Shown piece by piece: positions 9,575 through 44,281 of a stretch of DNA of 64,000 nucleotides. Both the position numbers and the translations under genes were made by a program. The notes beneath the pieces were generated by a model that searched no databases, had not been told where the DNA came from, and worked only from the letters and a program-made list of their open reading frames with translations. Where the stretch lies: positions 5,820 through 69,819 of the forward strand of contig JBLIRN010000014.1 of assembly GCA_049472315.1 (NCBI GenBank). The letters run 5' to 3'. This DNA comes from a bacterium (GTDB taxonomy: Bacteria > SZUA-182 > DTGQ01 > JAFGSM01). Numbering within the stretch: position 1 is the first letter of the stretch; each line of letters opens with the position of its first letter.

Positions 9575-12233
9575 GGGCATGGGTGATTTTATACGGTATT
9601 TTTCACGGGTGGCAGGGCTCTGGCTCGTGGTCGTCCTGTGGTGGGGCCTGATCGTTCTGGCCCCCTTGCAGATCCATAACGGGATCGTCATCCGCGACCT
9701 CCCCGCCATCGCAGGGGGGATCTATATACTCCTGCTCATGGGATTCTGGAAGAAATGGAGGATATCATTCCGTTCCATGAGGCAGGAGTGGCTTCTTCCC
9801 CTTCTGCTCATTGCAGCACTCGATGCGATTGCCATCCTGTATTTCCGCAGCATTACCTTTTCCTTCATCCTTACCTCACTATGTATCCTCTTGACCGGTC
9901 ATGTCTTGAATCTTGCGTCGTTTATCGATGCCGGATCCCTCCTCTTTCTTACCAGCGCGGGATTCGGAATCACCCACCTGATCATGCACCTCGTGCGCGG
10001 GATTCCCACCCTTGGATCCAGGTTTTTTGCCCGTCAGATCGCCTTCCTGCTCACCCTGTTTGGAAAGGACGCCCATGTGGTCATGGGTACCCTTTTTTTT
10101 CAAGGGAAAAAGATAACCTGCGACCTCATGAAGATGGGGTTTTTCCCGTGGCTGGCATTGAGCCTTGCCTTTCTCGCATTCATCGCCACGGCCCGGGGAA
10201 GCAGGAAAAAAAAGGCGTATGCCGCCGGAATCGGCATTGTCTTACATTATCTGTATCTGGTGGGAAGGGCCGCGCTGCTCTTTGTGTTCGTACCCGATCG
10301 CATGTATGCGGGCGCTGGAACGTTCAACCTCTTTTATTGGCGGATACTCGTTTTTTCATGTATCCCCCTGCTCCTTATATGGCTGTTCATCCTCTATGAG
10401 GCGGATCTGTCCGAGCCGGAAAAGGGTTTGTCCGGGCTGTTTTCTGCAAAGCCATCCCGGATGGACCCCCTGCTCTTCGCAGCGACTGTGATAACGGTGC
10501 TTTTCATGACCTTGTCATTTCTGTTCCACGGGTTTGCCAGACACCGGGACATCCACGTCATCATCGACGAGGTACACAGTGACTGGGAATCGAGCCTCAT
10601 CGATTTCAATCAAGACATCTTCGGCACCCTTGCGGAGAACAGCTACCACTCCCTACTGGACTACCTGAGGCACTTTTACCCGGCAACAATCCTGAGCAAT
10701 AAACCGGGCATGGCCCCCAATCTTGAGGGAGTCGAGTTGATCCATACCCCCATCCTCACCGGCGAGGTTCTGGACGGTGCCACGAGGATCCATCCGGAGC
10801 GGCACCCGGTGCTGGTCTTGAAATGCATCACCACGGCGTTTTCCCCCTATGAGATCGACATCATAAGGGATTTCGTCTCCCGCGGCGGAAGCGTACTGCT
10901 CATCGGCGACCACACGGATGTGTTTTTCATGAACAAGAATCTCAATGAGCTTGCAGGACACTTCGGCATACGGTTCGAGCAGAATTCCGTATATTTCATT
11001 GACGGGGGATGGGTCATCACGGATCCGCCGCACTACGAGTCGCATCCGGCAACCCACTTCCTGGGCCGGTTTATCTGGGCCACCGGGGATTCCGTGACCC
11101 TGAAATCGCCTGCGTTTCCCCTGATTACCAGCTCTCCGGTCTGTTTTGCCGATGAGGTCAATTACTTTTACGAAAATTTCTTCGGCAACACCACGATCGA
11201 TGCCGACGAGGTGTTCGGAAGCTACTGCGTCATGGCCGGATCACGGTATGGCAAGGGAAGGATCATTGCCTTTACCGATTCGACCTGCTTCAATAACTAC
11301 CTGATGTTCAGCGTGGGTCGAAGGCCGCTCATCGCGGGAATCTTCGGATGGCTGGGTGATACGGACTCGACGAATCCCTTTCCCCTGCTCACCTACCTCT
11401 CCTTTTGCGTGCTGGGGGTGATTATGCTGAAACGATGGCGAGGATTCGACTCGTTCCTGCGCACCTGCATCCTGGGCGTGATCCTGGGGTGGGGTGCAGG
11501 ATACCTTTTGGCTATGTCCATGAACGCCCTGCTCTACCCTCCCCCCGCACCCATACGTCCCTTGCCGCAGCAAGTGATCATGGATGCAAGCCATGACCCG
11601 CTCCATGCAATGAGTTACGGGAACAGCGAATCATTTCTTGCACCGACCAGTTACGACAGCCTCCTGTTCAATATCGGGAGGATAGACCTGTTCACGAGGA
11701 TACACTATGAAGGATCCCTTGGGAAGAGGGCGCTTGACGGATCGTCCTGCCTCATCATCGCCTCTCCGAGGGAGCAATTCTGCGCACGGGAGAGGGATGC
11801 AATACGATCGTATGTTCAGAACGGCGGATCGTTGCTCCTTATCGAGGGTGCGCATCACGATTCCACCGTCAATCAGATCGCGCATCTCTTCGACATGCAT
11901 GTGCGTCTCGACCCCTATCGCAACACGATCGATGCAATGAACCAGCGCCTGGCGAGGAACGGGCGTGATGCCCTTCGCACCAATCCCGCATGGGTGGATG
12001 GCGGCACCATGCTCTTCGGCTACGAGGGAATGCCTATTGTCATCTTCAAGCGAGAGGGCAAAGGAATGATTCTCGCCTTCGGCGACGACGGACTTTTCAT
12101 GAAGGAGAACTTTCAGGCATTCGGCCGGGAACTGGTTACCATGCAGTGCTTCATGGTCGAGGCGCTCGTGGGCAAGGACGAAGAGCTGCTGCGGTCCATC
12201 CGGTGGAATTATGTCGGCGACGGGGACCCTTGA
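9549..12233 (+). CDS. Polytopic membrane protein with two GldG/ABC_transp_aux (DUF4350)-like domains (MP2, tandem paralog)
   Basis: 894 aa with about 10 N-terminal TM helices. Domains carry motifs IDIIRDFVSRGGSVLLIGDHTD...IIAFTDSTCFNNYLMF and RDAIRSYVQNGGSLLLIEGAHHD...ILAFGDDGLFMKENF. Overlaps MP1 by 26 nt. Confidence 0.7.
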   Translation: MHMKRFSTKGMGDFIRYFSRVAGLWLVVVLWWGLIVLAPLQIHNGIVIRDLPAIAGGIYILLLMGFWKKWRISFRSMRQEWLLPLLLIAALDAIAILYFRSITFSFILTSLCILLTGHVLNLASFIDAGSLLFLTSAGFGITHLIMHLVRGIPTLGSRFFARQIAFLLTLFGKDAHVVMGTLFFQGKKITCDLMKMGFFPWLALSLAFLAFIATARGSRKKKAYAAGIGIVLHYLYLVGRAALLFVFVPDRMYAGAGTFNLFYWRILVFSCIPLLLIWLFILYEADLSEPEKGLSGLFSAKPSRMDPLLFAATVITVLFMTLSFLFHGFARHRDIHVIIDEVHSDWESSLIDFNQDIFGTLAENSYHSLLDYLRHFYPATILSNKPGMAPNLEGVELIHTPILTGEVLDGATRIHPERHPVLVLKCITTAFSPYEIDIIRDFVSRGGSVLLIGDHTDVFFMNKNLNELAGHFGIRFEQNSVYFIDGGWVITDPPHYESHPATHFLGRFIWATGDSVTLKSPAFPLITSSPVCFADEVNYFYENFFGNTTIDADEVFGSYCVMAGSRYGKGRIIAFTDSTCFNNYLMFSVGRRPLIAGIFGWLGDTDSTNPFPLLTYLSFCVLGVIMLKRWRGFDSFLRTCILGVILGWGAGYLLAMSMNALLYPPPAPIRPLPQQVIMDASHDPLHAMSYGNSESFLAPTSYDSLLFNIGRIDLFTRIHYEGSLGKRALDGSSCLIIASPREQFCARERDAIRSYVQNGGSLLLIEGAHHDSTVNQIAHLFDMHVRLDPYRNTIDAMNQRLARNGRDALRTNPAWVDGGTMLFGYEGMPIVIFKREGKGMILAFGDDGLFMKENFQAFGRELVTMQCFMVEALVGKDEELLRSIRWNYVGDGDP

Positions 12234-12447: not shown

Positions 12448-14283
12448 TCACCGCACCCAGAACCCGTACCCGTTGAGCAATGAGAGTGCATAGGCTAAGG
12501 GAAAAAGCTGATACGGGGAAATGGGAGATGACCACCGCGACTGCGATGCGTAGGGAGAAGCCGTTGAGGCTATGGAGGACTCAACCTGGTATCCCCCTGC
12601 ATTTGCCTGTGCATACCCCCAGCCTGAGAACGCCTGCTGCCCGATAGTGGAAAGGCCCTGCGCAGCAAACATCGGGGTCAATCCATAGGACGGCACAAAC
12701 GAATTAGCCCCTGCTACGGATGGATAGAACAATGACCTCCCGTTTGTGGCGAGGTATCCCTGGACGGTGGAGAACGACTGCTGAGAGACAGAGGGCTGAA
12801 ATGCCTGGATGCCCGCTTGCACGGCGGAGAGAAATCCTGCATTGCTTTGATATATTCGGTCTTCAGGGACATTCACGCCCACGGGAAGGGATGAGCCCTG
12901 ATAGACGGCTGAAGGCACGATTCGGGACGTGACCGGCTGGAACCCGGTCCGGGTGCCGAAGATGCTTGCCGTGGCATATGTGCCGGCAGCCTGCGTCGCT
13001 GCGAGGGGATTGACCAGCCCCCACCCGTACCATTGATCCCATCCCGGGTCGCCAAGGTCGCTTGCGGTGGTGCAGAGGATGTCCCGCACCTCTGACGGGG
13101 TAAGGGGCCGTGCCGAACGGGCAAGCATCAGCGCAGCCACACCGGACACGAATGCACAGGAGCATGAGGTGCCCTCGGCAAAATAGAAGTCGAAATCCTT
13201 GACATCGATCCCGGTATGGGTCTGCTGATAGATGCCGTCAGGATACCCATCGCCGTTCACGTCCTCGTCCAGGTCACCACCCGGTGCACAGATGTCCACA
13301 TCAGGCCCATAGTTGGAATAGGAATCGGCAAAGGAATGATCGAACCGGGTCGCGCTGACAGAGATGGCTGCGTCGTATGATGAGGGATAATGGGGCTCGC
13401 TGGTCGATTCGTTGCCCGCCGAGCATATAACCACCACTCCTTGGGATACCGCGAAATTGATCGCCTCCTCCTCGCTCGATGAGGGGCTGGTGACAAATCC
13501 GTAGCTCATGTTGATGACCCTGGCGCCGTTATTGACTGCAAAATATATGGCATCCACGATATCCGCCACCGTCCCCGAACCCGTATGGTCGAGCACCTTG
13601 ACCGGCATGAGAATGCACTCGGGGGCCACCCCGGCGCCCCCGATGAGATTGTTGGTACTCTGGGCGATGATGCCTGCGATATGCGTACCATGACGATTGT
13701 CGTCGTCAGGATAGGCATCGTCGTTCACGAAGTCGTATCCCGGCATGAAACTCGTCTCCGCCAGATCGGGGGCAAGGGCGAACCCGCCGCCGTTTCGATA
13801 GGCGACCCCGGTATCAAACACGGCAACCACCACGTTGGTTCCCAGGGATTGATCCCATGTCTGCTGGAGCATGGGATTATAGAGATGCCACTGAAGCTTG
13901 TACAGCGGATCATTGGGGATAAAATTCACCCTTCTCACATAGTTCGGCTCTGCCAAGGCTACCAGGGGATTCTGATTCAGATTTGCGGAAACGGCATACA
14001 CGTTGGAATTCGAAGGAACCCTCACCCTTCTCAACCCGCTGTAGGCACTGTATCCGACCTCGTTCAATCCCAGGTTGACATACGTGTTATTGATATCATT
14101 TGTGGATGCCTCGGAATGGTAACGAACCAGGACCTCCTGGGAGAAGTAGCCCTGGGTTTGCCTCCCTCCCCCCATTCCCCAGCCCCAGGAAGGAATCGAA
14201 GAAACATGGAAAAGAATGAAAAGACAACAAATCGTTATACAGCCTATCAACACACAAGCCCTGAACCGGCACCAGTACGCCAT
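12448..14283 (-). CDS. S8 family (subtilisin-like) serine peptidase with a C-terminal low-complexity Ser/Gln/Ala/Tyr-rich tail
   Basis: N-terminal signal peptide. Catalytic Asp (VAVFDTGV), His (HGTHIAGI) and Ser (GTSCSCAFVSGVAAL) motifs. The last roughly 200 aa are low-complexity and end GYGFWVR. Confidence 0.85.
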   Translation of the reverse strand: MAYWCRFRACVLIGCITICCLFILFHVSSIPSWGWGMGGGRQTQGYFSQEVLVRYHSEASTNDINNTYVNLGLNEVGYSAYSGLRRVRVPSNSNVYAVSANLNQNPLVALAEPNYVRRVNFIPNDPLYKLQWHLYNPMLQQTWDQSLGTNVVVAVFDTGVAYRNGGGFALAPDLAETSFMPGYDFVNDDAYPDDDNRHGTHIAGIIAQSTNNLIGGAGVAPECILMPVKVLDHTGSGTVADIVDAIYFAVNNGARVINMSYGFVTSPSSSEEEAINFAVSQGVVVICSAGNESTSEPHYPSSYDAAISVSATRFDHSFADSYSNYGPDVDICAPGGDLDEDVNGDGYPDGIYQQTHTGIDVKDFDFYFAEGTSCSCAFVSGVAALMLARSARPLTPSEVRDILCTTASDLGDPGWDQWYGWGLVNPLAATQAAGTYATASIFGTRTGFQPVTSRIVPSAVYQGSSLPVGVNVPEDRIYQSNAGFLSAVQAGIQAFQPSVSQQSFSTVQGYLATNGRSLFYPSVAGANSFVPSYGLTPMFAAQGLSTIGQQAFSGWGYAQANAGGYQVESSIASTASPYASQSRWSSPISPYQLFPLAYALSLLNGYGFWVR

Positions 14284-14547: not shown

Positions 14548-15921
14548 TTAGAATTGGTAACTCGCCCTGAAGACCAGTGCGGTTTCATGGAGAAACCGTG
14601 CCTCCGCCTGAAGGTGAAGGATATTCATGAACGGATAGCTGGCTCCCAGGAAAACACCCACGGGATTCGCCTCGCTGTAGTCATTCTCCAGGCGCGAGCC
14701 CACAAGGTCCAACTCGAAGGTGGCGTCAACCTGCGTAAAGGATAGTCCGCCATAGGGAACCAGTTTCGGGTATCCGAGATACCGTGCCGCGAGGGAGAGG
14801 TTCAGCTCCGTCCAATCAGCGGTGGCCTGTACCCCGTTTTGATATTCATCCTTGTTGGAGCCCATCAGGAAGGAGAGGCTGGCATCGAACAAAAGATCCC
14901 GTTCATCCCAACGATGGATCATCGCATTGACCCCGGCGCCATAGGCAAAACCGAGTACTCGTTTGAAATCGACACTGACGGCGCCGAAGTTGATGGTATC
15001 ATCGAACCCCAGGTCGGTCACACCCAGATCCAGAAAGAGGCGGAACCTCTCTCCGGGGGTATATCCCAGTCTGAATATGGCCCTCTTGTACTGAGAGCCT
15101 ATATCTACCGTTCCGCTCGGTATATCCATCTCCACGTCGCGGGCAAGTCCGGCCGCGGCGTCCAGTTCCAGGGAGAGTTTCTCCTTGATCCCTTTTCCCG
15201 CCACTGTAGGCCGCTCGGGCGCGGGTGCGGGGGTAACCTTCACCAGGCGTTCCATGTTTTCTCTGGCCATGGGGTAATCGGGTCTCACGGCCAGGGCCTT
15301 TTTGTACATGGCCACTGCGGTATCGACATCCCCTGTCTCCTCCGCCAGGTATCCGAGATTATTGTAGGCCTCGGCCATTGTCTGGTCCAATTCCAGGGCC
15401 CTCAGGTATTCCTTCCTGGCCTCCTCCATACGGGACAGCTTCATGAGACTGAGTCCCATGTTGAAATGTACGGCGGCATCATCGATGCCGTGGCGCATGG
15501 CCAGCCTGTATTCCTGAAGCGCCTTGTCCGGCTGGCCGGATCGGTCGTAGACGACCCCCAGGTTGAAATGCGCCTCTCCGAAGTCGGGTTTCAGTTGAAT
15601 CGCCTTTACATACGCATTCACGGCCTCCTGGTACATTCCCAACTCATACGAGGCCAATCCCAGATTATAATGGGCTTGCGGAGAATCGGGATCAGCGGTC
15701 ACGTTGGCCTTGAACTCATTCAGCGCCCCCTTGAAATCACCGGCCAGAAAGAGACGCTCCCCTTTATTCATCCGCTCCGTATCGGTTTTCTGGACATCCG
15801 ATGACCCCTTTTCGCCGAATGGACGTTTGAGTAATGACGAGGTCTTCTGCATCATTCCGCCGCAACCGAGCACGAATCCCAGACAGATAACGATAAAACC
15901 CTTCGCAAGCCGGTTCATCAT
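14548..15921 (-). CDS. TPR-repeat lipoprotein with C-terminal outer-membrane beta-barrel-like domain
   Basis: Lipobox LGC, at least 5 TPR repeats (AHYNLGLASYELGMYQEAVNAYVKAIQLKP and others), and a C-terminal roughly 200 aa of alternating amphipathic strands ending in Phe (ASYQF). Confidence 0.7.
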   Translation of the reverse strand: MMNRLAKGFIVICLGFVLGCGGMMQKTSSLLKRPFGEKGSSDVQKTDTERMNKGERLFLAGDFKGALNEFKANVTADPDSPQAHYNLGLASYELGMYQEAVNAYVKAIQLKPDFGEAHFNLGVVYDRSGQPDKALQEYRLAMRHGIDDAAVHFNMGLSLMKLSRMEEARKEYLRALELDQTMAEAYNNLGYLAEETGDVDTAVAMYKKALAVRPDYPMARENMERLVKVTPAPAPERPTVAGKGIKEKLSLELDAAAGLARDVEMDIPSGTVDIGSQYKRAIFRLGYTPGERFRLFLDLGVTDLGFDDTINFGAVSVDFKRVLGFAYGAGVNAMIHRWDERDLLFDASLSFLMGSNKDEYQNGVQATADWTELNLSLAARYLGYPKLVPYGGLSFTQVDATFELDLVGSRLENDYSEANPVGVFLGASYPFMNILHLQAEARFLHETALVFRASYQF

Positions 15922-16254: not shown

Positions 16255-16404
16255 AATTACTGGATACATCAAGTTACAGTTGTTATACTATAAAATAGTG
16301 AAGTATCAATTCACGGCACATAACGATTGATCGTCATGTGCGTCAATTAAACGTGTTGATGTATTCCCGAAAACGACATCTATTCAGTCCGGAAGGAGTC
16401 AGTC

Positions 16405-17520
16405 ATGAGCAGGTACAAGATTGCAGCCATATTCATACTCGTCGTCATCATGTCCCTTTTTTCAGTCCGGGTCTTTGCGGCAATTGACCCAGGCGGCTTT
16501 TACTATGACAAGGAAGTGACCCTGTTCAACGGGGGCACCGCCAGGCTTTACTTCCCCCAGGCAACCGGCGACCACGGGGAGGGCAACCATCACCTCATGT
16601 CGAACCCGAACGATCCCGGTTCGCTGTTTGACGAATTCTTTGCCAATGCCCAATCCGGCAAGTTTTTCCTCATGTACGACGGGAACGATGTGGTGGATGA
16701 CGAGATATTGATGATCGCCCTGGGTGAGCAATTTGACAACTATTTCTTTATGGCCCTTCAATGGCAAATAAACGACGGGCCCTTGTCCCAGAATATCTCC
16801 ATCGAGAGCGCCGATTTCAACAGCAATGAATACGGCTACTATCCACAATGGTGGAAGGTGGCCCGATCGGGAAAGCCACTCATTTACAGTGGATCGGACG
16901 AAGACGCCTACTACGTCATCTACGTCCCGCTCGAATTTGACGGCCAGTCAATGGCAAAGGGGGATGTCCTGTCAATCACCTACGCACTCACCCAATTTGA
17001 TGCCCCTCAGGCCAGGATTGTCTTCAATGTTTACGGCTCAAGCGATACAGAGTATTTTTACCAGTGGACCAACGCAAACGACAACACCTTCGGAATAAAC
17101 TCCCTCTATTCCTCGTCTCAACAGAACCAGCCCTCGATTTACCCGTATCTTTTCGGCGGGATGGGCTACGGCGGATACTATGGGGGATACTGGCCGGGGA
17201 TGGGTTCGTTTGGGGGATCATACGGAGGATGGGGCTTCTCCTCTCCTACGGGTTCCTACTACGGGTATGGATACGGCATCCCATATTCCTTCTATGGCTC
17301 CTCCTTTGGCGGCGGGTATGGGTATTCACCCTATGGAGGCGGTTTCGGCGGCTTATACGGGGGGTTTGGCTATCCTTACAGCAACTTCTATTCCGGCTGG
17401 TCCTACCGGCCGTACTCGTTCGGATACGGGAGTGGTTACGGATGGTCACCCTATACCATGGGATGGGGTTCCTTGGGTGGATATTATTCGAATTACTACG
17501 GCGGGTACAGCGGTTTCTGA
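16405..17520 (+). CDS. Secreted protein with extreme Gly/Tyr/Ser-rich low-complexity C-terminal region
   Basis: Signal peptide MSRYKIAAIFILVVIMSLFSVRVFA and RBS GGAAGGAG upstream. The C-terminal roughly 130 aa is almost entirely G/Y/S/F/W/P (GYGGYYGGYWPGMGSFGGSYGGWGF...GGYSGF). The N-terminal roughly 240-aa domain has no match I recognise. Confidence 0.7.
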   Translation: MSRYKIAAIFILVVIMSLFSVRVFAAIDPGGFYYDKEVTLFNGGTARLYFPQATGDHGEGNHHLMSNPNDPGSLFDEFFANAQSGKFFLMYDGNDVVDDEILMIALGEQFDNYFFMALQWQINDGPLSQNISIESADFNSNEYGYYPQWWKVARSGKPLIYSGSDEDAYYVIYVPLEFDGQSMAKGDVLSITYALTQFDAPQARIVFNVYGSSDTEYFYQWTNANDNTFGINSLYSSSQQNQPSIYPYLFGGMGYGGYYGGYWPGMGSFGGSYGGWGFSSPTGSYYGYGYGIPYSFYGSSFGGGYGYSPYGGGFGGLYGGFGYPYSNFYSGWSYRPYSFGYGSGYGWSPYTMGWGSLGGYYSNYYGGYSGF

Positions 17521-17592
17521 TCCTCCCTATAGGGATGGGATGTGGCGGATGTGCGGGTGCAACGACCGATCACGCGGCAGTTAGGATGGAGG

Positions 17593-18000
17593 CTATGAGG
17601 GTCGTACATTGAGCAGCCGGTTTACCTCCCCGATAAAGGCGCTCGCTTCAAACGGTTTGGTGACAAAGGCGTTTGCGCCCAGTTCCTTGAGCTGATACGA
17701 GTATTTTCTCTTGGTGTACACCGCCGTTATGATCAGGATGGGGATATTCTTCAATGCATCCATCTTCCGAATCTCGCTGCATACATCGAATCCATGCCTT
17801 CCGGGAAGCAGAAGATCCAGGACGACGAGGTCCACATTTTTTGACTTCAGGATGCTGATCGCCTCATCCCCCTTACATGCATGGAGTGTGGAATAGTTCG
17901 ACTGTTTCAGGATCTCCTCGATAAACTCCCTCACCAGGGGATCGTCGTCCACGATCAATACGGTGTACGCTCGACTGGATTGTTTGGTGTCAGATTTCAT
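17593..18000 (-). CDS. Response regulator receiver (single-domain, CheY-like)
   Basis: 135 aa. REC motifs LIVDDD, phospho-acceptor region VVLDLLLPG and conserved Lys in TKPF. Confidence 0.85.
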   Translation of the reverse strand: MKSDTKQSSRAYTVLIVDDDPLVREFIEEILKQSNYSTLHACKGDEAISILKSKNVDLVVLDLLLPGRHGFDVCSEIRKMDALKNIPILIITAVYTKRKYSYQLKELGANAFVTKPFEASAFIGEVNRLLNVRPS

Positions 18001-18091
18001 GGCTGTTGATCACTCCCGCAAAGATTAGGCGTTGCATTGTATGTGACATCATCTCTGGGCAAAAGCCCTGACTCAGCACATCCACACGTGC

Positions 18092-19213
18092 TCATCCGGA
18101 GGCATGAACCACGCTGCGGCCGGCCGGCTTCAGTACCTCGTAGCATTTGACCGGCTCGGTTTTATTCTTTGCAATGATCTCCCCCTTTTTCTGCAAAGGG
18201 AAGAGATCCTTTACCTGCCGGTATGTTTGTTCGCCGATCACGATTTCCCCTCCCTTTGCCATCTGCTCAAATCGCGCAGCAACGTTCACACAGTCGCCGA
18301 TGACCGTATAGTCGATCCTATTGACCGATCCCACATTTCCGGCGATGGCGATCCCGGTGTTGATGCCGATTCCGATCTCAAATGTCTCCTTTTGTTCCTT
18401 TGTGCGCTCCTTCATCAATCGCTCCGTGGCCTCCTGCATTTCTATGGCGGCCTGTATGGCATCGGCGGCCGGCGCATTCTCCGAGGGGATAAATCCAAAC
18501 AAGGCCATGAGGTTGTCCCCGATGAATTTATCCAGCACCCCGTTATTCTTGAAGATGATATCCACCATGTCGCTGAAGAACTGATTCAACATGGCCACCA
18601 CCTCCTCGGCGTCCATCCGCTCGGTAATGGTGGTAAAGGATCGTATGTCGGCAAAGAGAATGGTCACCTCTTTGCGTTCATTTTCAAAGAGCGCACCGCT
18701 TTCCGGATTCATGAGCTTTTCAACGAGATCTTCCCGCACGTACCTGCTCAAGGTAGTGCGCAGTTCCACCTCCTTTTGGTTGAGCTCAAACGCCTCGGTA
18801 AGGTCCTTGGCGTAGGTCATGAGTTGTATGCCCTGCTCCTTCAAATTCTTCAAAAGGACATTGAAATTCTGCGCGATGTCGTTCAATTCCTCGTCCGCCT
18901 TGATCTTGATCGATTCGACCTTTTCCCAGGATCGAATAATTCCTGTGGCCTTGGCAAGCTGAGCAAGCTGTTCCGCCGATCTCCTCAGGAGCACAAATCC
19001 AAGGAGGATTGAGAAGGCCGCAAGTGCCAGGAAGATGATGGTGATATCGAAGGTTTTTATATTTTTTTGGAAAAGGAGATAGATGATCAGCACAAAGGGA
19101 ATGATACCCATCAGGGCGAAGATGATCCGTGACTTGACATGAAAGCTTCTGAAATTAAGATAGCATGATCCGCACAGGTGACTCAGAATCGCTGTCAATT
19201 TGTTTTGATTCAT
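18092..19213 (-). CDS. Membrane-anchored class III adenylate/guanylate cyclase
   Basis: 2 N-terminal TM helices, a coiled/HAMP-like linker, and a CYCc domain (VTILFADIRSFTTITE, KFIGDNLMALFG, IGINTGIAIAGNVGS). Confidence 0.8.
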   Translation of the reverse strand: MNQNKLTAILSHLCGSCYLNFRSFHVKSRIIFALMGIIPFVLIIYLLFQKNIKTFDITIIFLALAAFSILLGFVLLRRSAEQLAQLAKATGIIRSWEKVESIKIKADEELNDIAQNFNVLLKNLKEQGIQLMTYAKDLTEAFELNQKEVELRTTLSRYVREDLVEKLMNPESGALFENERKEVTILFADIRSFTTITERMDAEEVVAMLNQFFSDMVDIIFKNNGVLDKFIGDNLMALFGFIPSENAPAADAIQAAIEMQEATERLMKERTKEQKETFEIGIGINTGIAIAGNVGSVNRIDYTVIGDCVNVAARFEQMAKGGEIVIGEQTYRQVKDLFPLQKKGEIIAKNKTEPVKCYEVLKPAGRSVVHASG

Positions 19214-19638
19214 GCATGCTCCTTTTGTTTCGTGTCGACACGCTCGAAATTCAGGAGACTGTCAAACTGCACCGCCACCTCCGTCTCGCCGTGGCCTGCG
19301 CCATCGGATATATCGGAATCCTTATAGATCCGCACGACCCGAGCCCGCGCCTTCATCCGGGCATGTACACTGCCGGCGCCGGGAAGATAAAAGGTCATCT
19401 CCAGTTCCTGTCCGAGGAAGTAACGATCCGTCCTCTTGGTAGCAAAGCAGGCCCCTCCTCCTGAGATGTCCTTGGAAACCGTCTTTTCATACCACTCCTT
19501 TCCCTCACTGTCCTCGGTGGCTATCTCAGTCAGGAACTCTATGTTGAACCGCTTGAACTCCCGTCGTTCTCCCGCGCTCCCCATCTTCTTCACCGCCATG
19601 TGCGTGCGTGCATCCTGTTTCACCGGTGTGTGTTCCAT
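19210..19638 (-). CDS. PilZ domain protein (c-di-GMP binding)
   Basis: RxxxR motif (RREFKRFN) and D/NxSxxGG motif (DISGGGACF). The start is placed at the ATG preceded by GAGG. The longer ORF to 19671 lacks an RBS. Overlaps the cyclase start by 4 nt. Confidence 0.65.
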   Translation of the reverse strand: MEHTPVKQDARTHMAVKKMGSAGERREFKRFNIEFLTEIATEDSEGKEWYEKTVSKDISGGGACFATKRTDRYFLGQELEMTFYLPGAGSVHARMKARARVVRIYKDSDISDGAGHGETEVAVQFDSLLNFERVDTKQKEHA

Positions 19639-19722
19639 GACGCCCGCCTCATTGACATGGGCGCCTCCCATGCCATAAGGGCCGGCGCTTTTTCCCTGCC
19701 CTCAGACTCATCGTTGACGATA

Positions 19723-20202
19723 TCATTTCGGCCTTTCGGGTTGTTGCTTGATGATCATTGTTCCCTCTTTTGTCCACTTCATCTGCGGTTGATTCTTGAA
19801 TGTGATCATGCCTTCATCGGATGTTTCCAGGTAAAAGGGGAACGTACACTCCTGCTTGTTCATGTTTTCATAGCATACGGTATACAGCACCTTCGTTCCT
19901 TCCTTTTCTTTCCCCTTTTCCACCCTTTCCATTTTCTTTTTCACACTGGTGATGAAGTTGACCTCGATATGCTTGAGCAAAAAGGCATCCAGGACCTCAA
20001 GGTTGTATCCGCTGGCAAAGATAATGAGGTCCTTTGTCAGGCCCAGGGAGCAGTCCTTGTAGGTTGCATGGCTTGTCTTCCAGACACCCTCGAGTCCGTC
20101 CTTGACAATGAGATCCCTCCCATCCCCGCACCCTGCGATAAGAAGGAGGATAATGAACAGCAATATCACTGACTCTATTCGAGAAATTATCTTTTTTTTC
20201 AT
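19723..20202 (-). CDS. Lipoprotein, unknown function (compositionally atypical, about 45% GC)
   Basis: Lipobox LLIAGC after MKKKIISRIESVILLFIIL. Lys/Glu-rich with no recognisable family. GC content is clearly below the flanking genes. Confidence 0.55.
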   Translation of the reverse strand: MKKKIISRIESVILLFIILLLIAGCGDGRDLIVKDGLEGVWKTSHATYKDCSLGLTKDLIIFASGYNLEVLDAFLLKHIEVNFITSVKKKMERVEKGKEKEGTKVLYTVCYENMNKQECTFPFYLETSDEGMITFKNQPQMKWTKEGTMIIKQQPERPK

Positions 20203-20219
20203 TGTCTGCACCTCATTTC

Positions 20220-22427
20220 TCACGGTGATTTCACGGCAAGTTCGACGCCCTTCTGCATGCCAGGTCTTCTCCGCTGCACTATCTTTGTTTTCTTATCGGT
20301 ATCTCGGCCGGTTTTTTTCTCCTCTAGTACCTTCAAGAGGGCATTCACCACCTGCGCATCGAACTGAGTGCCCGACCCCTCCTTGATGATCTGGAGGGTG
20401 CGCTCCTTTCCCATTCCCTCCCGATAGGGCCTGTCCGAGATAAGGGCATCGTATACATCCGCCACGGACAGGATACGCGCCCCAAGGCAGATGTCTTCGC
20501 CGGAAATACCGTGGGGATATCCCTTCCCGTCAAACCTTTCATGGTGCTGCAATCCCATGGGGATGATGTCTTTATAGGCAGCGATGGGTTCCAGGATGCG
20601 GGCGCCGGTCGCCGGATGCTGCTTTATGATGGCGAATTCCTCGTCCGTGAGCCTTCCCGGCTTGTCGAGGATCTCAGCAGGGACCCCGATCTTGCCGATG
20701 TCATGGAGCAACCCTCCCCGATGGAGGTCCTCAAGTTCCTTTTCACTGAGGCCCATGACCTTCCCCAGCTTCAATGCCATTTCCGTGACCCGCTCCGAGT
20801 GGCCGGCGGTCCAGGGGGACTTTGCATCAACCGTGCGGGCAAGGGCCTTCAAAGCGCCCCAGTTCAGATTATCCAGCTCCTCGATGAGGTGGGCGTTGGA
20901 CAGGGCGACCGCCACCTGGTCAGCAAGCTGCCTGACCTGGAGGAGATCCTCATCACTGGGCTCATGGACCTCGAAGGTGCCGAGTGCGATAGTCCCTGCC
21001 ATCCTTTGACTGATAAACAGAGGGAGCAGTATCGCCGATTCGACCCCTCTGTTTTTAAAGGATTCGAGCAAACCGGGTAACTCCTCCTTTGTTTTCAGCG
21101 TGAGCGTCTCTCGATGCTCCGCAAGCATCTCCAGGTCGTCCCGCTGTATCTCCACATCCTCGCAAGCGCGATTCGAGGCCCCGTGGCCGGTGTACACACG
21201 GGCCATGCAGCAGCCCTTGGATTGAAGGTCGAACAAGAGGACACTCACCAGATCATAGTTGCATACCTTGTGCATGGTGGAGATGACCGTGCCGATGATC
21301 TCTTCCGTGTCCAGGGAGGACAGGATGGCGCGGTCGATATCGGCCATGGTGGTCAGGGCGTTGAACTGCCTGCCGAGTTGCCGTGCCATGAAGTTGAAGG
21401 ATGATCCGAGTTCCTCGAATTCATCCTTGCTCGTTACCGTGACCCTGGTCTCGAAATCCTTCATGGCAATGCGTCTGGTCCCCTCCTTGAGCTTCTCGAG
21501 CGGGGTCATGGTCTTGCGTATCTGTATCACGCTCAGCAGCACGACCACCAGGAGGGAAAGCAGGATAAAGAGGGGAAATATCTTCTTGAAATAGGCAAGC
21601 GGGGCGAAGACGTCATCCTTGGCGGTGCTGGTGATGATCGTCCACTTCGGCTCAAAGAATTCATATTTCAGAAAGATCGGCCAAAAACACCCCAGAAACT
21701 CCCTTCCTTTGTAATCCCATTCGAACTGCTCCGAAAAGTACCGGCTCGCCTTTGCAGCCAGTGTCTTGCGAAACGAGGGGGACACCGGATGGGAGGAAAA
21801 GATCACGTTCTCAGACTCGTCCATGACACACAGCTCGGTGAGCCCGGGCAGCGAATCGGACTCTAAAAGGCCCCAGAGGTACATGGAGTCGACTTCCGCA
21901 TGGATGAGCCCCTTTGCAGGATCCTCGGGGTCAACAGGACTGATCATGAACACGCACAATTTGTCCTTGTTCCCATTCTCATACTCGGTTACTATAAGCG
22001 CCTTACCGGAGCGCAGATGTTCACGCTGTGCATCGGACAGCCGGATTGGTGCATGTTGATCACCGAACACCGGGATCAGTGCGCCGGCATGGGTCTGCAG
22101 CGCCAGCGTGATGAACCGCCCCTTCAACCCCTCGATTCCTGCATGTGATGGAAGCGGGGTGGATGATCCGCGTATCTCATTCATGCCCGAGGAGAGGACG
22201 TTCAACTGGGTTTCAAGAAACAGGAGACGTTCCATTACGGACATGCCGATGGATTTACTCGATCTGCGCAGCCTCAACCGGCTTTGCGACTCAAGCTGCT
22301 TCGATACCTGGGTGAATGAGATGACGGAGATCGCTACGAGCGGGATCAGTGCGCAGAGTATAAACAATGCGAATATCCGGCGTGCAACCTTGCTCTTCAG
22401 GAATGTCTCGTCGATTCGTATCCCCAT
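20220..22427 (-). CDS. HD-GYP domain c-di-GMP phosphodiesterase with N-terminal membrane/periplasmic sensor, HAMP and GAF-like regions
   Basis: HD motif (GLLHDIGKIGVP), GYP motif (HHERFDGKGYPHG). An N-terminal TM helix, periplasmic region and a second TM are present. Confidence 0.85.
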   Translation of the reverse strand: MGIRIDETFLKSKVARRIFALFILCALIPLVAISVISFTQVSKQLESQSRLRLRRSSKSIGMSVMERLLFLETQLNVLSSGMNEIRGSSTPLPSHAGIEGLKGRFITLALQTHAGALIPVFGDQHAPIRLSDAQREHLRSGKALIVTEYENGNKDKLCVFMISPVDPEDPAKGLIHAEVDSMYLWGLLESDSLPGLTELCVMDESENVIFSSHPVSPSFRKTLAAKASRYFSEQFEWDYKGREFLGCFWPIFLKYEFFEPKWTIITSTAKDDVFAPLAYFKKIFPLFILLSLLVVVLLSVIQIRKTMTPLEKLKEGTRRIAMKDFETRVTVTSKDEFEELGSSFNFMARQLGRQFNALTTMADIDRAILSSLDTEEIIGTVISTMHKVCNYDLVSVLLFDLQSKGCCMARVYTGHGASNRACEDVEIQRDDLEMLAEHRETLTLKTKEELPGLLESFKNRGVESAILLPLFISQRMAGTIALGTFEVHEPSDEDLLQVRQLADQVAVALSNAHLIEELDNLNWGALKALARTVDAKSPWTAGHSERVTEMALKLGKVMGLSEKELEDLHRGGLLHDIGKIGVPAEILDKPGRLTDEEFAIIKQHPATGARILEPIAAYKDIIPMGLQHHERFDGKGYPHGISGEDICLGARILSVADVYDALISDRPYREGMGKERTLQIIKEGSGTQFDAQVVNALLKVLEEKKTGRDTDKKTKIVQRRRPGMQKGVELAVKSP

Positions 22428-22436
22428 TAATCCCTC

Positions 22437-23033
22437 TTAGAATTCGGATGCAAGCCCCACGAATGCCCCATTGCTTGCCCGAATGACGTCGTCGTAACTC
22501 ACTTTTGCATCAATGCCCGGCTCGCTCAACCCATCCTTCCCCATGCTGAAGAGGTCGTAGTCGGTATTGAGCGGCTTGAGAAAACGGCACTGTCGCATCT
22601 TGCCCTCGACCCCTTTATGGGCGCTGTCATAGGGGTTATACTGATAAAGGTTTCCCCAGGGATCTCTCTGGCTCCCGAAGTGGATGTCATCGAGCGTCTG
22701 CGGCAGGTCGTCGTTGTTCAATTCGAAGGTGGGGTTGTCGGTGTCCACCTGGTATGACCAGATATCCCTCTCCATGACCCGGATCTCGGTGATTGCCCGC
22801 GCCACCCGTGTCTTGTAGAGGTAGTTGGTATATGAGGGAACGGCAATGGCGCCCAGGGTGGCGACGATCGTGACGGTGATGAGTATCTCAACCATGGTGA
22901 ATCCATGCGGAGATCCCTTTCCAAGGAATTCCGTTAGGGTGAATCTCCTTCGACATATATGCCGTGTCCGAGCGGCAGTGACCCCTTTTAAAAGATCACC
23001 CCTGCTATGAAGCCGGTTGTTTCGATCCACCAT
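22437..23033 (-). CDS. Type IV pilin-like/pseudopilin protein with unusually long (44-aa) basic leader
   Basis: Prepilin cleavage/methylation motif G|FTMVEILITVTIVATLGAIAVPSY. The only in-frame start with an RBS (AAGGAGG, 5 nt upstream) is the ATG at 23033, which gives a 44-residue leader (MVDRNNRLHSRGDLLKGVTAARTRHICRRRFTLTEFLGKGSPHG). Confidence 0.65.
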   Translation of the reverse strand: MVDRNNRLHSRGDLLKGVTAARTRHICRRRFTLTEFLGKGSPHGFTMVEILITVTIVATLGAIAVPSYTNYLYKTRVARAITEIRVMERDIWSYQVDTDNPTFELNNDDLPQTLDDIHFGSQRDPWGNLYQYNPYDSAHKGVEGKMRQCRFLKPLNTDYDLFSMGKDGLSEPGIDAKVSYDDVIRASNGAFVGLASEF

Positions 23034-23623
23034 TGTCCCTCCTTGTATCGCTCCGACGAAAAGGCACCGGAGCGGAGAACTCATTGCCCTGCGCTCGATG
23101 GATATATCTTTATATTTATCGGATAAATCACCCGGTTGTATCGGCATCCTCTTCACAAACAACCGATTTTGGGGTAATTGTGAGATGATCGGCATGCAGT
23201 GAAGTTATTTTCATAGAAACTGGTTCTGTGGTAATTTTTTCACACTCCCGCGAAAAGTATGAACACCCGACATGGCAATCCCTGACCCTTGTGGACGCAA
23301 TCTATTCTTTGTAAATCAGCATATTATGTCGTTTCCGCCATGGGATGCACAAACACGGAATGCTTCTTGCATATAATCCATCCGATCCGTATCACTGGGT
23401 TTAACCGATAAAGAGATAACGTGCGACGGATTCCTGATAAAGGACATGCCGCACTATCAGAGATTCTTACCGAAGGTTCGAGCGTGCATTCCTTAGGATT
23501 GGCATTGCGCCGGCCAAGGAGGTTGCAGCATCGGCCGGCCTATCACGAGCCTGTTTGGGTGAGGTTGGGAAGAACGTCCCTGGAGAGCTTTACAACCGGC
23601 GATCTTAGTGACGGAGGAACCAT

Positions 23624-24927: not shown

Positions 24928-25638
24928 TTAGTATCCCAGGATCTGAGCTGCAGTCAGCAGTGATGAAAAGGCCGGCGTTGGATTGATCAAGGAGGCCAGC
25001 CACGGATTCAACCCAGTGAGATTCGGAGGCAGCGTGAGATTGTAGGCAGCAAGGGCCAGCGTCGGATATTGTGCCACATAGGCCAGATTGGCTGTCGGCA
25101 GGTTCGACTGGATCCACAGGGGATCGGTTGCCGGGAGCAGATTGAAACCCGTAGGCAGGCCCAGCGGTAATGCACCGCCTATTGTAGGATTCAACGCATA
25201 TGACGGCGGCCAGGCGTTTATTCCGTAAATGATATCGTAATATTGCATCCCTACCGGTGAATTATACAGGAAGTAGGGATAGCTGATCGCCGGGTTCCAC
25301 GCCAGTCCTGGCTGTACAGGAAGCGTTGTCGATGGAAAGAGGTTGCTCACGATGGGTGTCGGCAGCCCGGTGGTCGCACTGACCGGAGACAGGGCGGGTG
25401 ACCAGAGGGGCCACAAGAAATTGTAGGGCGGCATTGCGGTCCATGTCTGTGCAGTTGCCAGCCTGTTTCCCAAAAGCCCAAAGACAACCATGACAACACA
25501 GATGAAAACAACGGTTCTGATAGTGCTTTTTAATGACATACCATATACTCCTTTTGTTTTATCGTATACCCCAACCAACAGAAACAACTCGTCCACTGTT
25601 CCTTTCGTGTTCTTGTGTTCATCTCCTTTAGGCAACAC
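24928..25638 (-). CDS. Secreted Pro/Leu/Tyr-rich low-complexity protein
   Basis: Signal peptide (VVFICVVMVVFGLLGNRLATA). The remainder is rich in P/L/Y/N/A (PPYNFLWPLWSPALSPV...YPYFLYNSP...) and ends ILGY. Confidence 0.6.
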   Translation of the reverse strand: MLPKGDEHKNTKGTVDELFLLVGVYDKTKGVYGMSLKSTIRTVVFICVVMVVFGLLGNRLATAQTWTAMPPYNFLWPLWSPALSPVSATTGLPTPIVSNLFPSTTLPVQPGLAWNPAISYPYFLYNSPVGMQYYDIIYGINAWPPSYALNPTIGGALPLGLPTGFNLLPATDPLWIQSNLPTANLAYVAQYPTLALAAYNLTLPPNLTGLNPWLASLINPTPAFSSLLTAAQILGY

Positions 25639-25732: not shown

Positions 25733-26203
25733 CTACTGGAGCAATACCCAGCTCAGGTAGAAGTCCGGTGTTCCATAGGTATACGAAGGATAACTAAACC
25801 GCGTGTAAGGAAGCGGGGTGCCGGGCAGCGTGGTAAAGGGATATGTGGTCGTATAGGGTGAACCCATATAAGGATATGTCTCCTTACCAAAAAAGTTGTA
25901 TAAATAGTTCTGATATGGGTTTAAAAAGGGATTAGCATAGTAATATCCAAGCAGGTTCCCCGGAATGGGGGGAAAAAATCCGTATCCGAGGTTATAAAAG
26001 GGATCGGTAATCGAGTTGAAATACCCATAATTGCTGAAGGCCAATGGACTTGTGTAATAATAGGTAACGGGCGGAAGGTATGTCGGATCGTAGTTTCCCG
26101 GATACACCTGCGCGGGTGCCTGAACGGCCAGCAGGCACAGGACAATCAAAACAAGACCCGTCAACCAGACCCTCTCGCAGCCCCCTTTTTTCATAATCAT
26201 CAT
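25733..26203 (-). CDS. Secreted Tyr/Pro-rich low-complexity protein
   Basis: Signal peptide (LTGLVLIVLCLLAVQAPAQ). The mature part is about 20% Tyr (YPGNYDPTYLPPVTYYYTSP...GYYYANPFLNPYQNYLYNFF...). Confidence 0.6.
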   Translation of the reverse strand: MMIMKKGGCERVWLTGLVLIVLCLLAVQAPAQVYPGNYDPTYLPPVTYYYTSPLAFSNYGYFNSITDPFYNLGYGFFPPIPGNLLGYYYANPFLNPYQNYLYNFFGKETYPYMGSPYTTTYPFTTLPGTPLPYTRFSYPSYTYGTPDFYLSWVLLQ

Positions 26204-43770: not shown

Positions 43771-43771
43771 T

Positions 43772-44266: not shown

Positions 44267-44281
44267 TCCCGTGATGAGAGA

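What the first reader, a model, noticed from the sequence alone, without database searches (positions are those of the whole stretch)
16405..17520. Secreted protein with an extreme Gly/Tyr-rich low-complexity tail (GYGGYYGGYWPG...GGYSGF)
After a signal peptide and a roughly 240-aa globular region with no family I can recognise, the final roughly 130 residues consist almost only of G, Y, S, F, W and P in GY, YG and FGG repeats. This composition is characteristic of eukaryotic structural and phase-separating proteins (keratin-associated, chorion and cuticle proteins) and of Tyr-rich bacterial spore-coat proteins cross-linked via dityrosine. It is rare in secreted proteins of Gram-negative bacteria. 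It may form a cross-linked or amyloid-like extracellular matrix component. Two other Tyr-rich secreted proteins and an S8 peptidase with a similar tail occur in the same window.
Basis: seen in the sequence. Interest (0 to 1): 0.55.

Follow-up and report, generated by a model that had tools for sequence, protein, structure and literature searches.

The report
Secreted bacterial protein, Gly/Tyr sticky tail
This is a real, conserved gene from an unclassified sediment bacterium that encodes a secreted protein with a rare beta-sandwich head and a 130-residue uncharged glycine/aromatic tail, which sits where its nearest outside relative carries a cell-surface sorting signal and so most likely acts as a sticky anchoring or self-association module.

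Summary
ORF 16405-17520(+) encodes 371 aa. Residues 241-371 are G 33%, Y 23%, S 15%, F 8%, P 7% and W 4%, with one charged residue (P~2e-35 against the window's own proteins).

It is not a frame artefact. Eleven homologs of about 370 aa all carry the tail, and its dN/dS is 0.14-0.23, close to the globular domain's 0.06-0.19.

The tail is not a DNA repeat. Its aromatic residues are evenly spaced (P=0.0004), and 31 alignment columns keep an aromatic residue.

The only clear outside relative, P0012, has the same domain followed directly by a VPLPA-CTERM (PEP-CTERM class) exosortase signal. So the tail occupies the position of a surface-anchoring signal.

Best reading: a Sec-exported matrix or adhesion protein whose tail sticks non-covalently. 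Dityrosine cross-linking, stable amyloid and a sorting signal are weaker rivals.

Gly/Tyr-rich secreted bacterial proteins recur in metagenomes, so the kind is under-described rather than unique. All functional claims are inferred.

The parts
16261..16289 (+). Sigma-70-like promoter candidate (TGGATA-17-TATACT, with TG before the -10 element)
   Evidence: Consensus scan only, so the evidence is weak. The region is conserved only among the closest relatives.
16319..16372 (+). Conserved non-coding block upstream of the gene, containing the palindrome ACGAT-TG-ATCGT (16323-16334). It is a likely regulator-binding or promoter element.
   Evidence: Many columns are invariant across six genomes whose synonymous sites are saturated between the two clades. 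The palindrome is kept by compensatory change (ATGA-TTGT-TCAT) in the distant clade.
16393..16398 (+). Shine-Dalgarno sequence AAGGAG, 6 nt before the ATG
   Evidence: Read directly from the sequence. It is invariant in all six aligned genomes.
16405..17520 (+). Complete coding sequence, 371 aa plus stop codon
16405..16479 (+). Sec-type signal peptide (residues 1-25, MSRYKIAAIFILVVIMSLFSVRVFA|A). It has no lipobox.
   Evidence: By inspection of the translation. The pattern is conserved in all homologs. AF2 predicts a helix for residues 3-27. No dedicated signal-peptide predictor was available.
16480..17103 (+). Acidic all-beta N-terminal domain (residues 26-233; 29 D+E against 8 K+R). The model is a jelly-roll sandwich. 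It contains the most conserved motif ESADFNSNEYGYYPQWWKVAxSGKPLI and ends in WTNxNxNTFGINS.
17104..17139 (+). Polar linker (residues 234-245, LYSSSQQNQPSI) with an invariant QQ
   Evidence: Alignment A1: Q239 and Q240 are invariant.
17140..17517 (+). Gly/aromatic-rich uncharged low-complexity tail (residues 246-371; by composition it starts at about residue 241). It ends in a hydrophobic or aromatic residue in all homologs.
   Evidence: Composition. dN/dS 0.14-0.23. 31 aromatic and 14 Gly class-conserved columns out of 122; aromatic spacing sd 1.40 against 2.29 in shuffles, P=0.0004. No DNA tandem repeat. AF2 pLDDT about 22 with no secondary structure.
14548..15921 (-). Divergently transcribed neighbour: a lipoprotein (lipobox LGC) with N-terminal TPR repeats and a C-terminal region of about 200 aa that looks like an outer-membrane beta-barrel and ends in YQF. 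It is a candidate partner only.
   Evidence: Pfam TPR families, plus OMP_b-brl at E=6e-6 (26.9 bits, below the 28.7-bit cutoff). It is adjacent to the target in all relatives whose flank is available. No functional link has been shown.
12448..14283 (-). Neighbouring S8 subtilase with a fervidolysin-type prodomain and its own 178-aa Ser/Ala/Gly/Gln-rich C-terminal low-complexity region. It is a candidate processing enzyme only.
   Evidence: Pfam Peptidase_S8 at 2.9e-56. Conserved position. Its tail composition differs from the target's and is poorly conserved.
25733..26203 (-). Second secreted aromatic-rich low-complexity protein (156 aa; Tyr 20%, Pro 15%)
   Evidence: Conserved in relatives. 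No family. No homology to the target tail (E=1.4).

Best explanation
The gene encodes a Sec-exported, two-module extracellular matrix or adhesion protein. Module 1 (residues 26-233) is a strongly acidic beta-jelly-roll domain from a very small, undescribed family. It probably binds a ligand, and a glycan is the best guess. Module 2 (residues ~241-371) is an uncharged glycine/aromatic 'sticker-and-spacer' low-complexity tail. The evenly spaced Tyr, Phe and Trp residues would mediate multivalent non-covalent stacking. This would let the protein associate with itself and adsorb to the cell envelope, to exopolysaccharide or to particles. In this way the tail does the job that a PEP-CTERM-class exosortase anchor does in the domain's nearest outside relative. 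Shown here: the gene and its tail are real and under purifying selection; the domain architecture; the replacement of the VPLPA-CTERM signal position by the tail; and the aromatic patterning. Inferred: export beyond the periplasm, the ligand of the head domain, the self-association or adhesion behaviour of the tail, and any role for the neighbouring TPR/beta-barrel lipoprotein, the S8 peptidase or the cyclic-nucleotide signalling genes.
Confidence: 0.5

Rival explanations
1. Stable functional amyloid. The tail polymerises into ordered cross-beta fibres that form the main structural fibre of a matrix or sheath, as curli (CsgA) or Fap do. The neighbouring beta-barrel lipoprotein and the protease would act as its export and processing machinery.
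For: Gly/aromatic segments are prone to form cross-beta structure (from my own knowledge of the FUS and hnRNPA1 low-complexity cores). The protein is secreted. An outer-membrane-type protein and a peptidase are conserved next to it, which loosely resembles FapF and FapD. The positional conservation of the tail would fit a defined fold.
Against: There are no imperfect repeat units at DNA or protein level. There is no Pfam or NCBIfam hit to curlin, Fap or any other family even at E<=10. The tail has 9-13 Pro residues and is 19-32% Gly. Aromatic autocorrelation is negative at lag 2, so there is no strand-like alternation. AF2 predicts no strands. The beta-barrel region of the neighbour is only about 200 aa, which is small for a protein channel.
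Confidence: 0.15
2. Covalently cross-linked coat. Tyr residues are oxidatively coupled (dityrosine or quinone tanning) to form an insoluble shell, as in spore coats, trematode eggshells or resilin.
For: The tail is 23% Tyr, and 11 aromatic columns are strictly Tyr across the family. Eukaryotic Gly/Tyr domains are proposed to be tanned (PMC4498902).
Against: 17 of 31 conserved aromatic columns exchange Y, F and W freely, and the Tyr count varies from 20 to 30 while the total aromatic fraction stays at 28-35%. No peroxidase, laccase or tyrosinase was found among the window genes that were scanned. Gene content (pyruvate:ferredoxin oxidoreductase) and the MAG isolate names suggest an anoxic sediment organism in which oxidative coupling is unlikely; this last point is inference.
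Confidence: 0.1
3. The tail is itself a targeting device. It would be a long C-terminal secretion or outer-membrane-association signal, recognised by the adjacent TPR/beta-barrel lipoprotein or by BAM and possibly removed by the S8 peptidase. That would make it a new analogue of the PEP-CTERM or T9SS C-terminal domains.
For: It sits exactly where P0012 has its sorting signal. All 12 homologs end in a hydrophobic or aromatic residue (F, V, L or I), and 10 of 12 have Tyr or Phe at the -1 position. The TPR/OMP gene and the peptidase gene are conserved neighbours.
Against: At 130 aa it is several times longer than any known sorting signal. It has no transmembrane segment and no basic cluster, and matches no NCBIfam sorting-domain model. 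It has no amphipathic beta pattern. No other protein in the window or in about 100 kb of relatives' loci carries a homologous tail, whereas a sorting signal is normally shared by many substrates. No PEP-CTERM-like C-terminus occurs in those loci apart from P0012 itself.
Confidence: 0.1
4. Artefact. The tail is a wrong-frame read-through or non-coding sequence that happens to be open, given that all three forward frames are open here.
For: ORFs 17064-17612 and 17180-17584 overlap the tail in the other two forward frames.
Against: dN/dS is 0.14-0.23 in the reported frame. Third-position changes dominate. Indels against the close relatives are multiples of three. Twelve independent assemblies from NCBI, JGI, ENA and Logan give the same architecture.
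Confidence: 0.01

Closest known systems
PEP-CTERM / VPLPA-CTERM exosortase-sorted surface proteins (for example the floc protein PepA)
   Same: Both have a signal peptide followed by a modest extracellular domain. The only clear outside relative of the head domain (P0012) is a bona fide VPLPA-CTERM protein. Both are expected to associate with the matrix or exopolysaccharide.
   Different: The target has no PEP or VPLPA motif, no transmembrane segment and no Arg cluster. A 130-aa Gly/aromatic tail replaces them. No exosortase and no other PEP-CTERM-like C-terminus was seen in the window or the relatives' loci.
Eukaryotic Gly/Tyr-rich low-complexity domains: high-glycine-tyrosine keratin-associated proteins, mollusc shell-matrix GY regions (KRMP-3, prismalin-14, shematrins), tubeworm and tick cement
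   Same: The composition is similar (56% G+Y here; an ovine KAP has 63 mol%, PMC6896175). They are extracellular or structural materials. The KRMP-3 GY region binds polysaccharide tightly (PMC4498902).
   Different: There is no sequence homology. The target is bacterial, Cys-free, not tandemly repetitive, and attached to a folded acidic domain.
FUS/hnRNP-type prion-like domains and LARKS (low-complexity aromatic-rich kinked segments); the comparison draws on my own knowledge of that literature
   Same: Both have [G/S]-aromatic-[G/S] motifs (19 here), evenly spaced aromatic 'stickers' separated by Gly/Ser spacers, near-zero charge and predicted disorder.
   Different: The target is poor in Gln and Asn, richer in Pro, Phe and Trp, and extracellular. 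Its positions are conserved, not only its composition. There is no homology to any PDB chain. Phase behaviour has not been tested.
Vibrio cholerae Bap1 57-aa adhesive loop
   Same: It is an aromatic-rich low-complexity segment attached to a folded, glycan-binding matrix protein of a diderm bacterium. It gives non-specific adhesion and self-aggregation, and it works when placed at the C-terminus (PMC13484692).
   Different: Bap1-57aa is Lys/Arg-rich (net +5), consists of four 8-residue pseudo-repeats, is less than half as long, and is not Gly-rich.
Unannotated bacterial secreted proteins with (GGY)n regions found in metagenomes (for example L040 Peptidase_A4 plus GY tail, the L088 tandem genes, L122, L028, L019)
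   Same: They combine a signal peptide with an uncharged Gly/Tyr-rich region, often at the C-terminus, on contigs with bacterial neighbours.
   Different: Those regions are simple tandem GGY or GYG arrays on unrelated or absent N-domains. The target tail is non-repetitive, contains Pro, Ser, Phe and Trp, and is conserved position by position.
Beta-jelly-roll carbohydrate-binding modules (CBM27, 28, 6, 35)
   Different: Sequence identity is 10% or less, there is no sequence-level hit, Foldseek TM-scores are 0.25-0.38, and the conserved loop is modelled with low confidence (pLDDT 31-39).

Membership tests
PEP-CTERM / VPLPA-CTERM exosortase substrates | C-terminal tripartite signal: PEP or VPLPA motif, a hydrophobic helix, and a basic cluster | tested here: not met
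   NCBIfam and Pfam give no hit for the target, and a regex search finds none in the window. The relative P0012 does meet it (TIGR03370, 28.6 bits against a 25.35 cutoff).
PEP-CTERM / VPLPA-CTERM exosortase substrates | N-terminal signal peptide | tested here: met
   By inspection of residues 1-25, conserved in all homologs. No dedicated predictor was available.
PEP-CTERM / VPLPA-CTERM exosortase substrates | An exosortase (EpsH/Xrt) is encoded in the genome | not testable with these tools
   None was found among the window ORFs scanned. The complete MAGs could not be searched.
Curli / Fap functional amyloids | Imperfect tandem repeat units with conserved Gln/Asn/Gly/Ser ladders, and homology to CsgA or FapC | tested here: not met
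   There is no tandem repeat, no Pfam or NCBIfam hit at E<=10, and the tail is poor in Gln and Asn.
Curli / Fap functional amyloids | A dedicated export operon (csgEFG or fapF) | tested here: not met
   The neighbours are a TPR/OMP-like lipoprotein, an S8 peptidase and signalling genes. None matches CsgG or FapF.
FUS-like prion-like / LARKS low-complexity domains (a functional class, not a homologous family) | Low-complexity G/S/Y composition with [G/S]Y[G/S] motifs and evenly patterned aromatic residues | tested here: met
   There are 9 strict [GS]Y[GS] motifs and 19 [GS][YFW][GS] motifs. Aromatic spacing sd is 1.40 against 2.29 in shuffles, P=0.0004.
FUS-like prion-like / LARKS low-complexity domains (a functional class, not a homologous family) | Reversible phase separation or hydrogel formation, with kinked cross-beta contacts | not testable with these tools
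   This needs purified protein. AF2 gives pLDDT of about 22 for the tail.
High-glycine-tyrosine keratin-associated proteins / metazoan GY-rich matrix proteins | Sequence homology or shared ancestry | tested here: not met
   There is no Pfam hit at E<=10, no PDB sequence hit, and the tail profile search found nothing (that search is uninformative because of composition correction).
Tyr-rich spore-coat proteins (CotC/CotU type) | Small Tyr/Lys/Asp-rich charged proteins of endospore formers, cross-linked through dityrosine | tested here: not met
   The tail is uncharged (1 of 131 residues). The organism has diderm gene content (PilQ secretin, lipoprotein/OMP). Cross-linking itself cannot be tested here.
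Carbohydrate-binding modules (beta-jelly-roll CBMs) | Jelly-roll beta-sandwich fold | tested here: inconclusive
Carbohydrate-binding modules (beta-jelly-roll CBMs) | Membership of a CAZy CBM family by sequence, and demonstrated glycan binding | tested here: not met
   There is no Pfam, NCBIfam or PDB sequence match. Glycan binding cannot be tested here.
T9SS / LPXTG / GlyGly-CTERM / MYXO-CTERM sorting domains | A match to the corresponding C-terminal domain model | tested here: not met
   NCBIfam returns 0 families for the target at E<=0.01.

The most novel reading that the evidence does not exclude
The tail is a bacterial extracellular 'sticker-and-spacer' domain that forms a gel-like or condensate-like phase outside the cell. 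In this lineage it has replaced exosortase-dependent anchoring of the same head domain. It is also the best-conserved example of a broad, so far unrecognised class of Gly/Tyr-rich secreted bacterial proteins, which would be a prokaryotic counterpart of keratin-associated, shell-matrix and FUS-type materials.
Probability: 0.25. Interest if true: 0.7.

Novelty: new variant of a known kind. Interest (0 to 1): 0.45.

Why it matters
Aromatic/glycine low-complexity domains are a central theme in eukaryotic materials and phase separation, but they are barely described for bacterial extracellular proteins. This family offers a clean natural comparison: the same rare head domain carries either a PEP-CTERM-class anchor or a Gly/aromatic tail. 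That makes it possible to test directly whether such a tail can replace enzymatic surface anchoring. The tail is 130 aa, Cys-free, uncharged and non-repetitive, with conserved positions, so it is also a tractable candidate for a bio-adhesive or hydrogel. The metagenome scan suggests many more unannotated bacterial Gly/Tyr proteins exist, so a systematic census could define a new class of matrix components. The limits are that the lineage is uncultured and tiny (4 species genomes), and every functional statement is inferred.

Tried and rejected
1. Frame artefact or non-coding sequence: rejected by the codon-level analysis.
2. DNA slippage array: rejected. TRF finds only a 24-nt, 2-copy match with score 34, and all four Gly codons are used.
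3. Profile search with the tail alone against 5.8 billion proteins: it returned nothing, not even the family's own members, so it is uninformative because composition correction penalises this kind of sequence.
4. Profile search with the N-domain plus P0012: it returned only P0012.
5. Exhaustive phmmer of the N-domain: 3 clusters only.
6. PDB sequence searches with the tail, the N-domain profile and the neighbour's barrel region: no hits at E<=10.
7. The afdb50 fold library was unavailable.
8. The full-length AF2 model was too poor to use (pLDDT 42).
9. Rfam on the whole window: no RNA families.
10. Slam/type XI-like translocator idea for the TPR/beta-barrel neighbour: not supported. The TPR_Slam hit is a generic TPR match, and the barrel region of about 200 aa is small and falls below the OMP_b-brl cutoff.
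11. A sigma-54 promoter upstream (TGGCAC at about 16221): the -12 GC element is missing and the site is not conserved in the distant clade, so I dropped it.
12. Homology between the tail and the other Tyr-rich ORF or the S8 tail: none.
13. Tracing the MAGs to a publication by accession or isolate name: no paper found. The phylum remains unknown.
Full report
OBSERVATION

The ORF at 16405-17520 (+) exists exactly as described: ATG start, 371 aa. Residues 1-25 look like a Sec signal peptide by inspection: a basic n-region, a hydrophobic core, then VFA|A, with no lipobox. Residues 26-240 have ordinary complexity but are strongly acidic (29 D+E against 8 K+R). Residues 241-371 are G 33%, Y 23%, S 15%, F 8%, P 7% and W 4%, with a single charged residue (R335) and no Cys.

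I compared this with the composition of 25 other proteins encoded in the window. The G+Y excess has a binomial P of 2e-35. No 131-aa stretch of those proteins exceeds 23.7% G+Y, against 55.7% in the tail.

IS THE TAIL REAL?

This was worth testing, because all three forward frames are open across the tail.

A search of 5.8 billion proteins found 11 homologs at 54-96% identity. All are 367-383 aa, come from NCBI, JGI, ENA and Logan assemblies, and carry the tail.

I fetched the DNA of five homologs and ran a Nei-Gojobori analysis.
- For pairs whose synonymous sites are not saturated, dN/dS is 0.14-0.23 in the tail and 0.06-0.19 in the head.
- Differences in the tail concentrate at third codon positions (5/5/18 against P0001 and 17/18/47 against P0002).
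- There is no indel against P0001, and only 12-nt and 3-nt indels against P0002.

The tail is therefore translated in this frame and is under purifying selection. It is not a slippage array either. Tandem Repeats Finder reports only a 24-nt, two-copy match, and all four Gly codons are used evenly.

The gene has an AAGGAG Shine-Dalgarno sequence 6 nt upstream of the ATG, invariant in six genomes. It also has a conserved upstream non-coding block (16319-16372). Within that block, the palindrome ACGAT-TG-ATCGT is preserved by compensatory change in the distant clade. This argues for an independently regulated gene.

ANATOMY OF THE TAIL

Across the 12 family members the tail keeps these properties:
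- a length of 128-141 aa;
- an aromatic fraction of 28-35%;
- 0-3 charged residues;
- no Cys;
- a hydrophobic or aromatic last residue.

Of 122 well-populated alignment columns, 31 keep an aromatic residue and 14 keep Gly in at least 90% of sequences. That is more positional conservation than a purely composition-driven region would show.

Among the 31 aromatic columns, 17 exchange Y, F and W freely, 11 are strictly Tyr, 2 are strictly Phe and 1 is strictly Trp.

Aromatic residues are spaced much more evenly than in shuffled tails (sd of gaps 1.40 against 2.29, P=0.0004). Their autocorrelation is negative at lags 1 and 2, so there is no beta-strand-like alternation. There are 19 [GS][YFW][GS] motifs. 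AlphaFold gives the tail a pLDDT of about 22 with no secondary structure.

THE HEAD DOMAIN

There is no Pfam or NCBIfam match even at E<=10, and no PDB sequence match.

An exhaustive phmmer search of 1.84 billion cluster representatives found three clusters: the family itself, P0012 (241 aa, 38% identity, E=9.5e-28) and P0013 (277 aa, E=9e-5). P0013 is a circular permutation of the domain.

A scan of one genome for each of 185,579 species found the domain in four genomes. All are 'MAG: bacterium' assemblies from one project, with isolate names starting MF1_, MG1_ or MG2_.

I conclude that the head is a beta-jelly-roll sandwich. Glycan binding is a lead, not a finding.

THE KEY COMPARISON

P0012 aligns with the head domain up to the shared terminal motif (YTNPNDNTFG against WTNANDNTFG). 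It then ends ...APVPLPASAWLLLSGLGGLLWRRRP. This passes NCBI's curated cutoff for the VPLPA-CTERM sorting domain (28.6 against 25.35 bits). It also weakly matches the floc protein PepA and Pfam PEP-CTERM.

PEP-CTERM-class signals direct proteins, through exosortase, to the cell exterior in exopolysaccharide-producing diderm bacteria, and they include floc-forming proteins (PMC1569441, PMC9850573).

In the only clear outside relative, then, this domain is a surface or matrix protein. In the target family, the Gly/aromatic tail occupies exactly the position of that sorting and anchoring signal.

The target has no such signal. No PEP-CTERM-like C-terminus occurs in the window or in about 100 kb of relatives' loci.

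CONTEXT

The window comes from a diderm organism: it has the PilQ secretin, PilM, PilW, two PilY1 proteins and a lipoprotein/OMP gene. It also carries pyruvate:ferredoxin oxidoreductase genes.

The target is flanked as follows:
- upstream, a divergently transcribed lipoprotein with TPR repeats and an outer-membrane-barrel-like C-terminal region of about 200 aa, and beyond it an S8 subtilase;
- downstream, a response regulator, a class III nucleotide cyclase, a PilZ protein and an HD-GYP phosphodiesterase.

This order is conserved in all relatives. However, those genomes are collinear over the whole region, so the conservation says little about functional coupling.

- ORF 25733-26203 (-) is a secreted protein with 20% Tyr and 15% Pro;
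- ORF 24928-25638 (-) is Leu/Pro/Ala-rich with 6% Tyr;
- the S8 tail is Ser/Ala/Gly/Gln-rich with 7% Tyr and is poorly conserved;
- none of these is homologous to the target tail.

HOW RARE IS IT?

The literature library contains 37 papers that use 'glycine-tyrosine-rich'-type phrases. All concern eukaryotic proteins: keratin-associated proteins, hnRNPs, mollusc shell matrix, and tubeworm or tick cement.

Many of the ORFs combine a signal peptide with an uncharged Gly/Tyr region. Examples:
- L040, a Peptidase_A4 domain with a C-terminal GY tail, next to an NhaA-DsbA fusion gene and a FUSC-family gene (L040);
- L122, next to a MacB/FtsX permease gene;
- two tandem genes in L088.

Such proteins therefore recur in bacteria but are unannotated. 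Most are simple (GGY)n arrays, whereas the target tail is non-repetitive and conserved position by position.

MECHANISM

The best-supported reading (confidence 0.5) is as follows. The protein is exported by Sec and acts as a matrix or adhesion protein. Its acidic jelly-roll head binds some ligand. Its neutral sticker-and-spacer tail provides multivalent, non-covalent aromatic contacts. Through these it associates with itself and adsorbs to the envelope, exopolysaccharide or particles, which substitutes for exosortase-type anchoring.

Two experimental precedents show that such segments adhere:
- the KRMP-3 Gly/Tyr region alone binds chitin and is released only by SDS (PMC4498902);
- the aromatic Bap1-57aa peptide glues V. 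cholerae biofilms to surfaces and still works at a C-terminus (PMC13484692).

The gene, its architecture, the selection on it, the aromatic patterning and the swap with a sorting signal are shown. Export across the outer membrane, the ligand and the adhesive behaviour are inferred.

The rivals are:
- stable amyloid fibre (0.15), argued against by the lack of repeats, the Pro/Gly content and the absence of strand alternation;
- dityrosine or tanned coat (0.10), argued against by the free Y/F/W exchange, the absence of an oxidase and the likely anoxic habitat;
- a long sorting or outer-membrane-targeting signal (0.10), argued against by its length, the lack of sharing with other proteins and the absence of any model match;
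- artefact (0.01), refuted.

VERDICT

This is a real and unusual gene. It is a new variant of known kinds: aromatic/glycine low-complexity structural or adhesive domains, and PEP-CTERM-type surface proteins. It is found in a tiny uncultured lineage.

The most useful new facts are the replacement of a VPLPA-CTERM anchor by the tail, the evidence that the tail is selected at the level of individual positions, and the indication that Gly/Tyr-rich secreted proteins are an overlooked bacterial class.

Interest is moderate (0.45). There are no functional data, and the composition alone turns out not to be unique in bacteria.

Noticed in passing
window 25733-26203 (-): A 156-aa secreted protein (signal peptide ending APA|QV) with 20% Tyr, 15% Pro and 9% Phe and almost no charge. 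It is conserved in relatives as a 142-158 aa gene. It has no Pfam or NCBIfam family and no homology to the target tail.
   Followed up: partly
window 24928-25638 (-); the likely true start is the Met at about 25539: A secreted Leu/Pro/Ala/Thr-rich low-complexity protein with aromatic patches (AISYPYFLYNSPVGMQYYDIIYG). It lies next to the Tyr-rich ORF and is conserved as a 197-203 aa gene in relatives. It belongs to no family.
   Followed up: partly
window 12448-14283 (-), C-terminal part about 12448-12984: The S8 subtilase carries a 178-aa Ser/Ala/Gly/Gln-rich, poorly conserved C-terminal region that ends in a hydrophobic stretch plus Arg (LFPLAYALSLLNGYGFWVR). This could be an unrecognised C-terminal anchor or sorting element. 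The relatives in L001 and L006 have an (NY)n insertion after the signal peptide.
   Followed up: partly
window 16319-16372 (+): A conserved non-coding block upstream of the target contains the palindrome ACGAT-TG-ATCGT (16323-16334). The distant clade keeps the palindrome as ATGA-TTGT-TCAT. It is probably a transcription-factor site.
   Followed up: partly
P0013 (277 aa, metagenomic protein): This is a circularly permuted version of the head domain. Target residues 15-99 match P0013 residues 188-268, and target residues 111-186 match P0013 residues 42-120. It has neither a Gly/Tyr tail nor a sorting signal.
   Followed up: partly
window 17593-23195 (-): A cyclic-nucleotide signalling cluster comprises a response regulator, a class III cyclase, a PilZ protein, a small lipoprotein, a HAMP-GAF-HD-GYP protein and a GspG-like pseudopilin. 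The lipoprotein, HD-GYP and pseudopilin genes are present in the close relatives (L004, L005) but absent from the distant clade (L001, L003, L006).
   Followed up: no
window 17064-17612 and 17180-17584 (+): All three forward reading frames are open across the tail, which is a consequence of GGN/TAY-rich codons. Gene callers could pick the wrong frame here.
   Followed up: yes
window 7310-12233 (+): Two consecutive large proteins (754 and 894 aa) have DUF4350, ABC_transp_aux (GldG-like) and IFT52-GIFT domains. They lie upstream of the S8 peptidase and are conserved in relatives.
   Followed up: no
window 41868-61288 (+): A large type IV pilus region contains a PilW-like minor pilin, two giant PilY1-domain proteins (1522 aa with a BACON domain; 1085 aa with a VWA domain), PilM and a PilQ secretin with an AMIN domain.
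   Followed up: no
L088 2787-4813 (+); L040 12128-13168 (+): Other bacterial secreted proteins carry Gly/Tyr tails. L088 has two tandem paralogs with a long (NNY)n region followed by a (GGY)n C-terminus. L040 has a Peptidase_A4 domain followed by a 59-aa uncharged (GGY)n tail, on a contig with an NhaA-DsbA fusion gene and a FUSC-family gene.
   Followed up: partly
L001 4955-6031 (+): A 358-aa hypothetical gene lies between the DUF4350 pair and the S8 peptidase in the distant clade. It has no counterpart in the window. I did not examine it.
   Followed up: no
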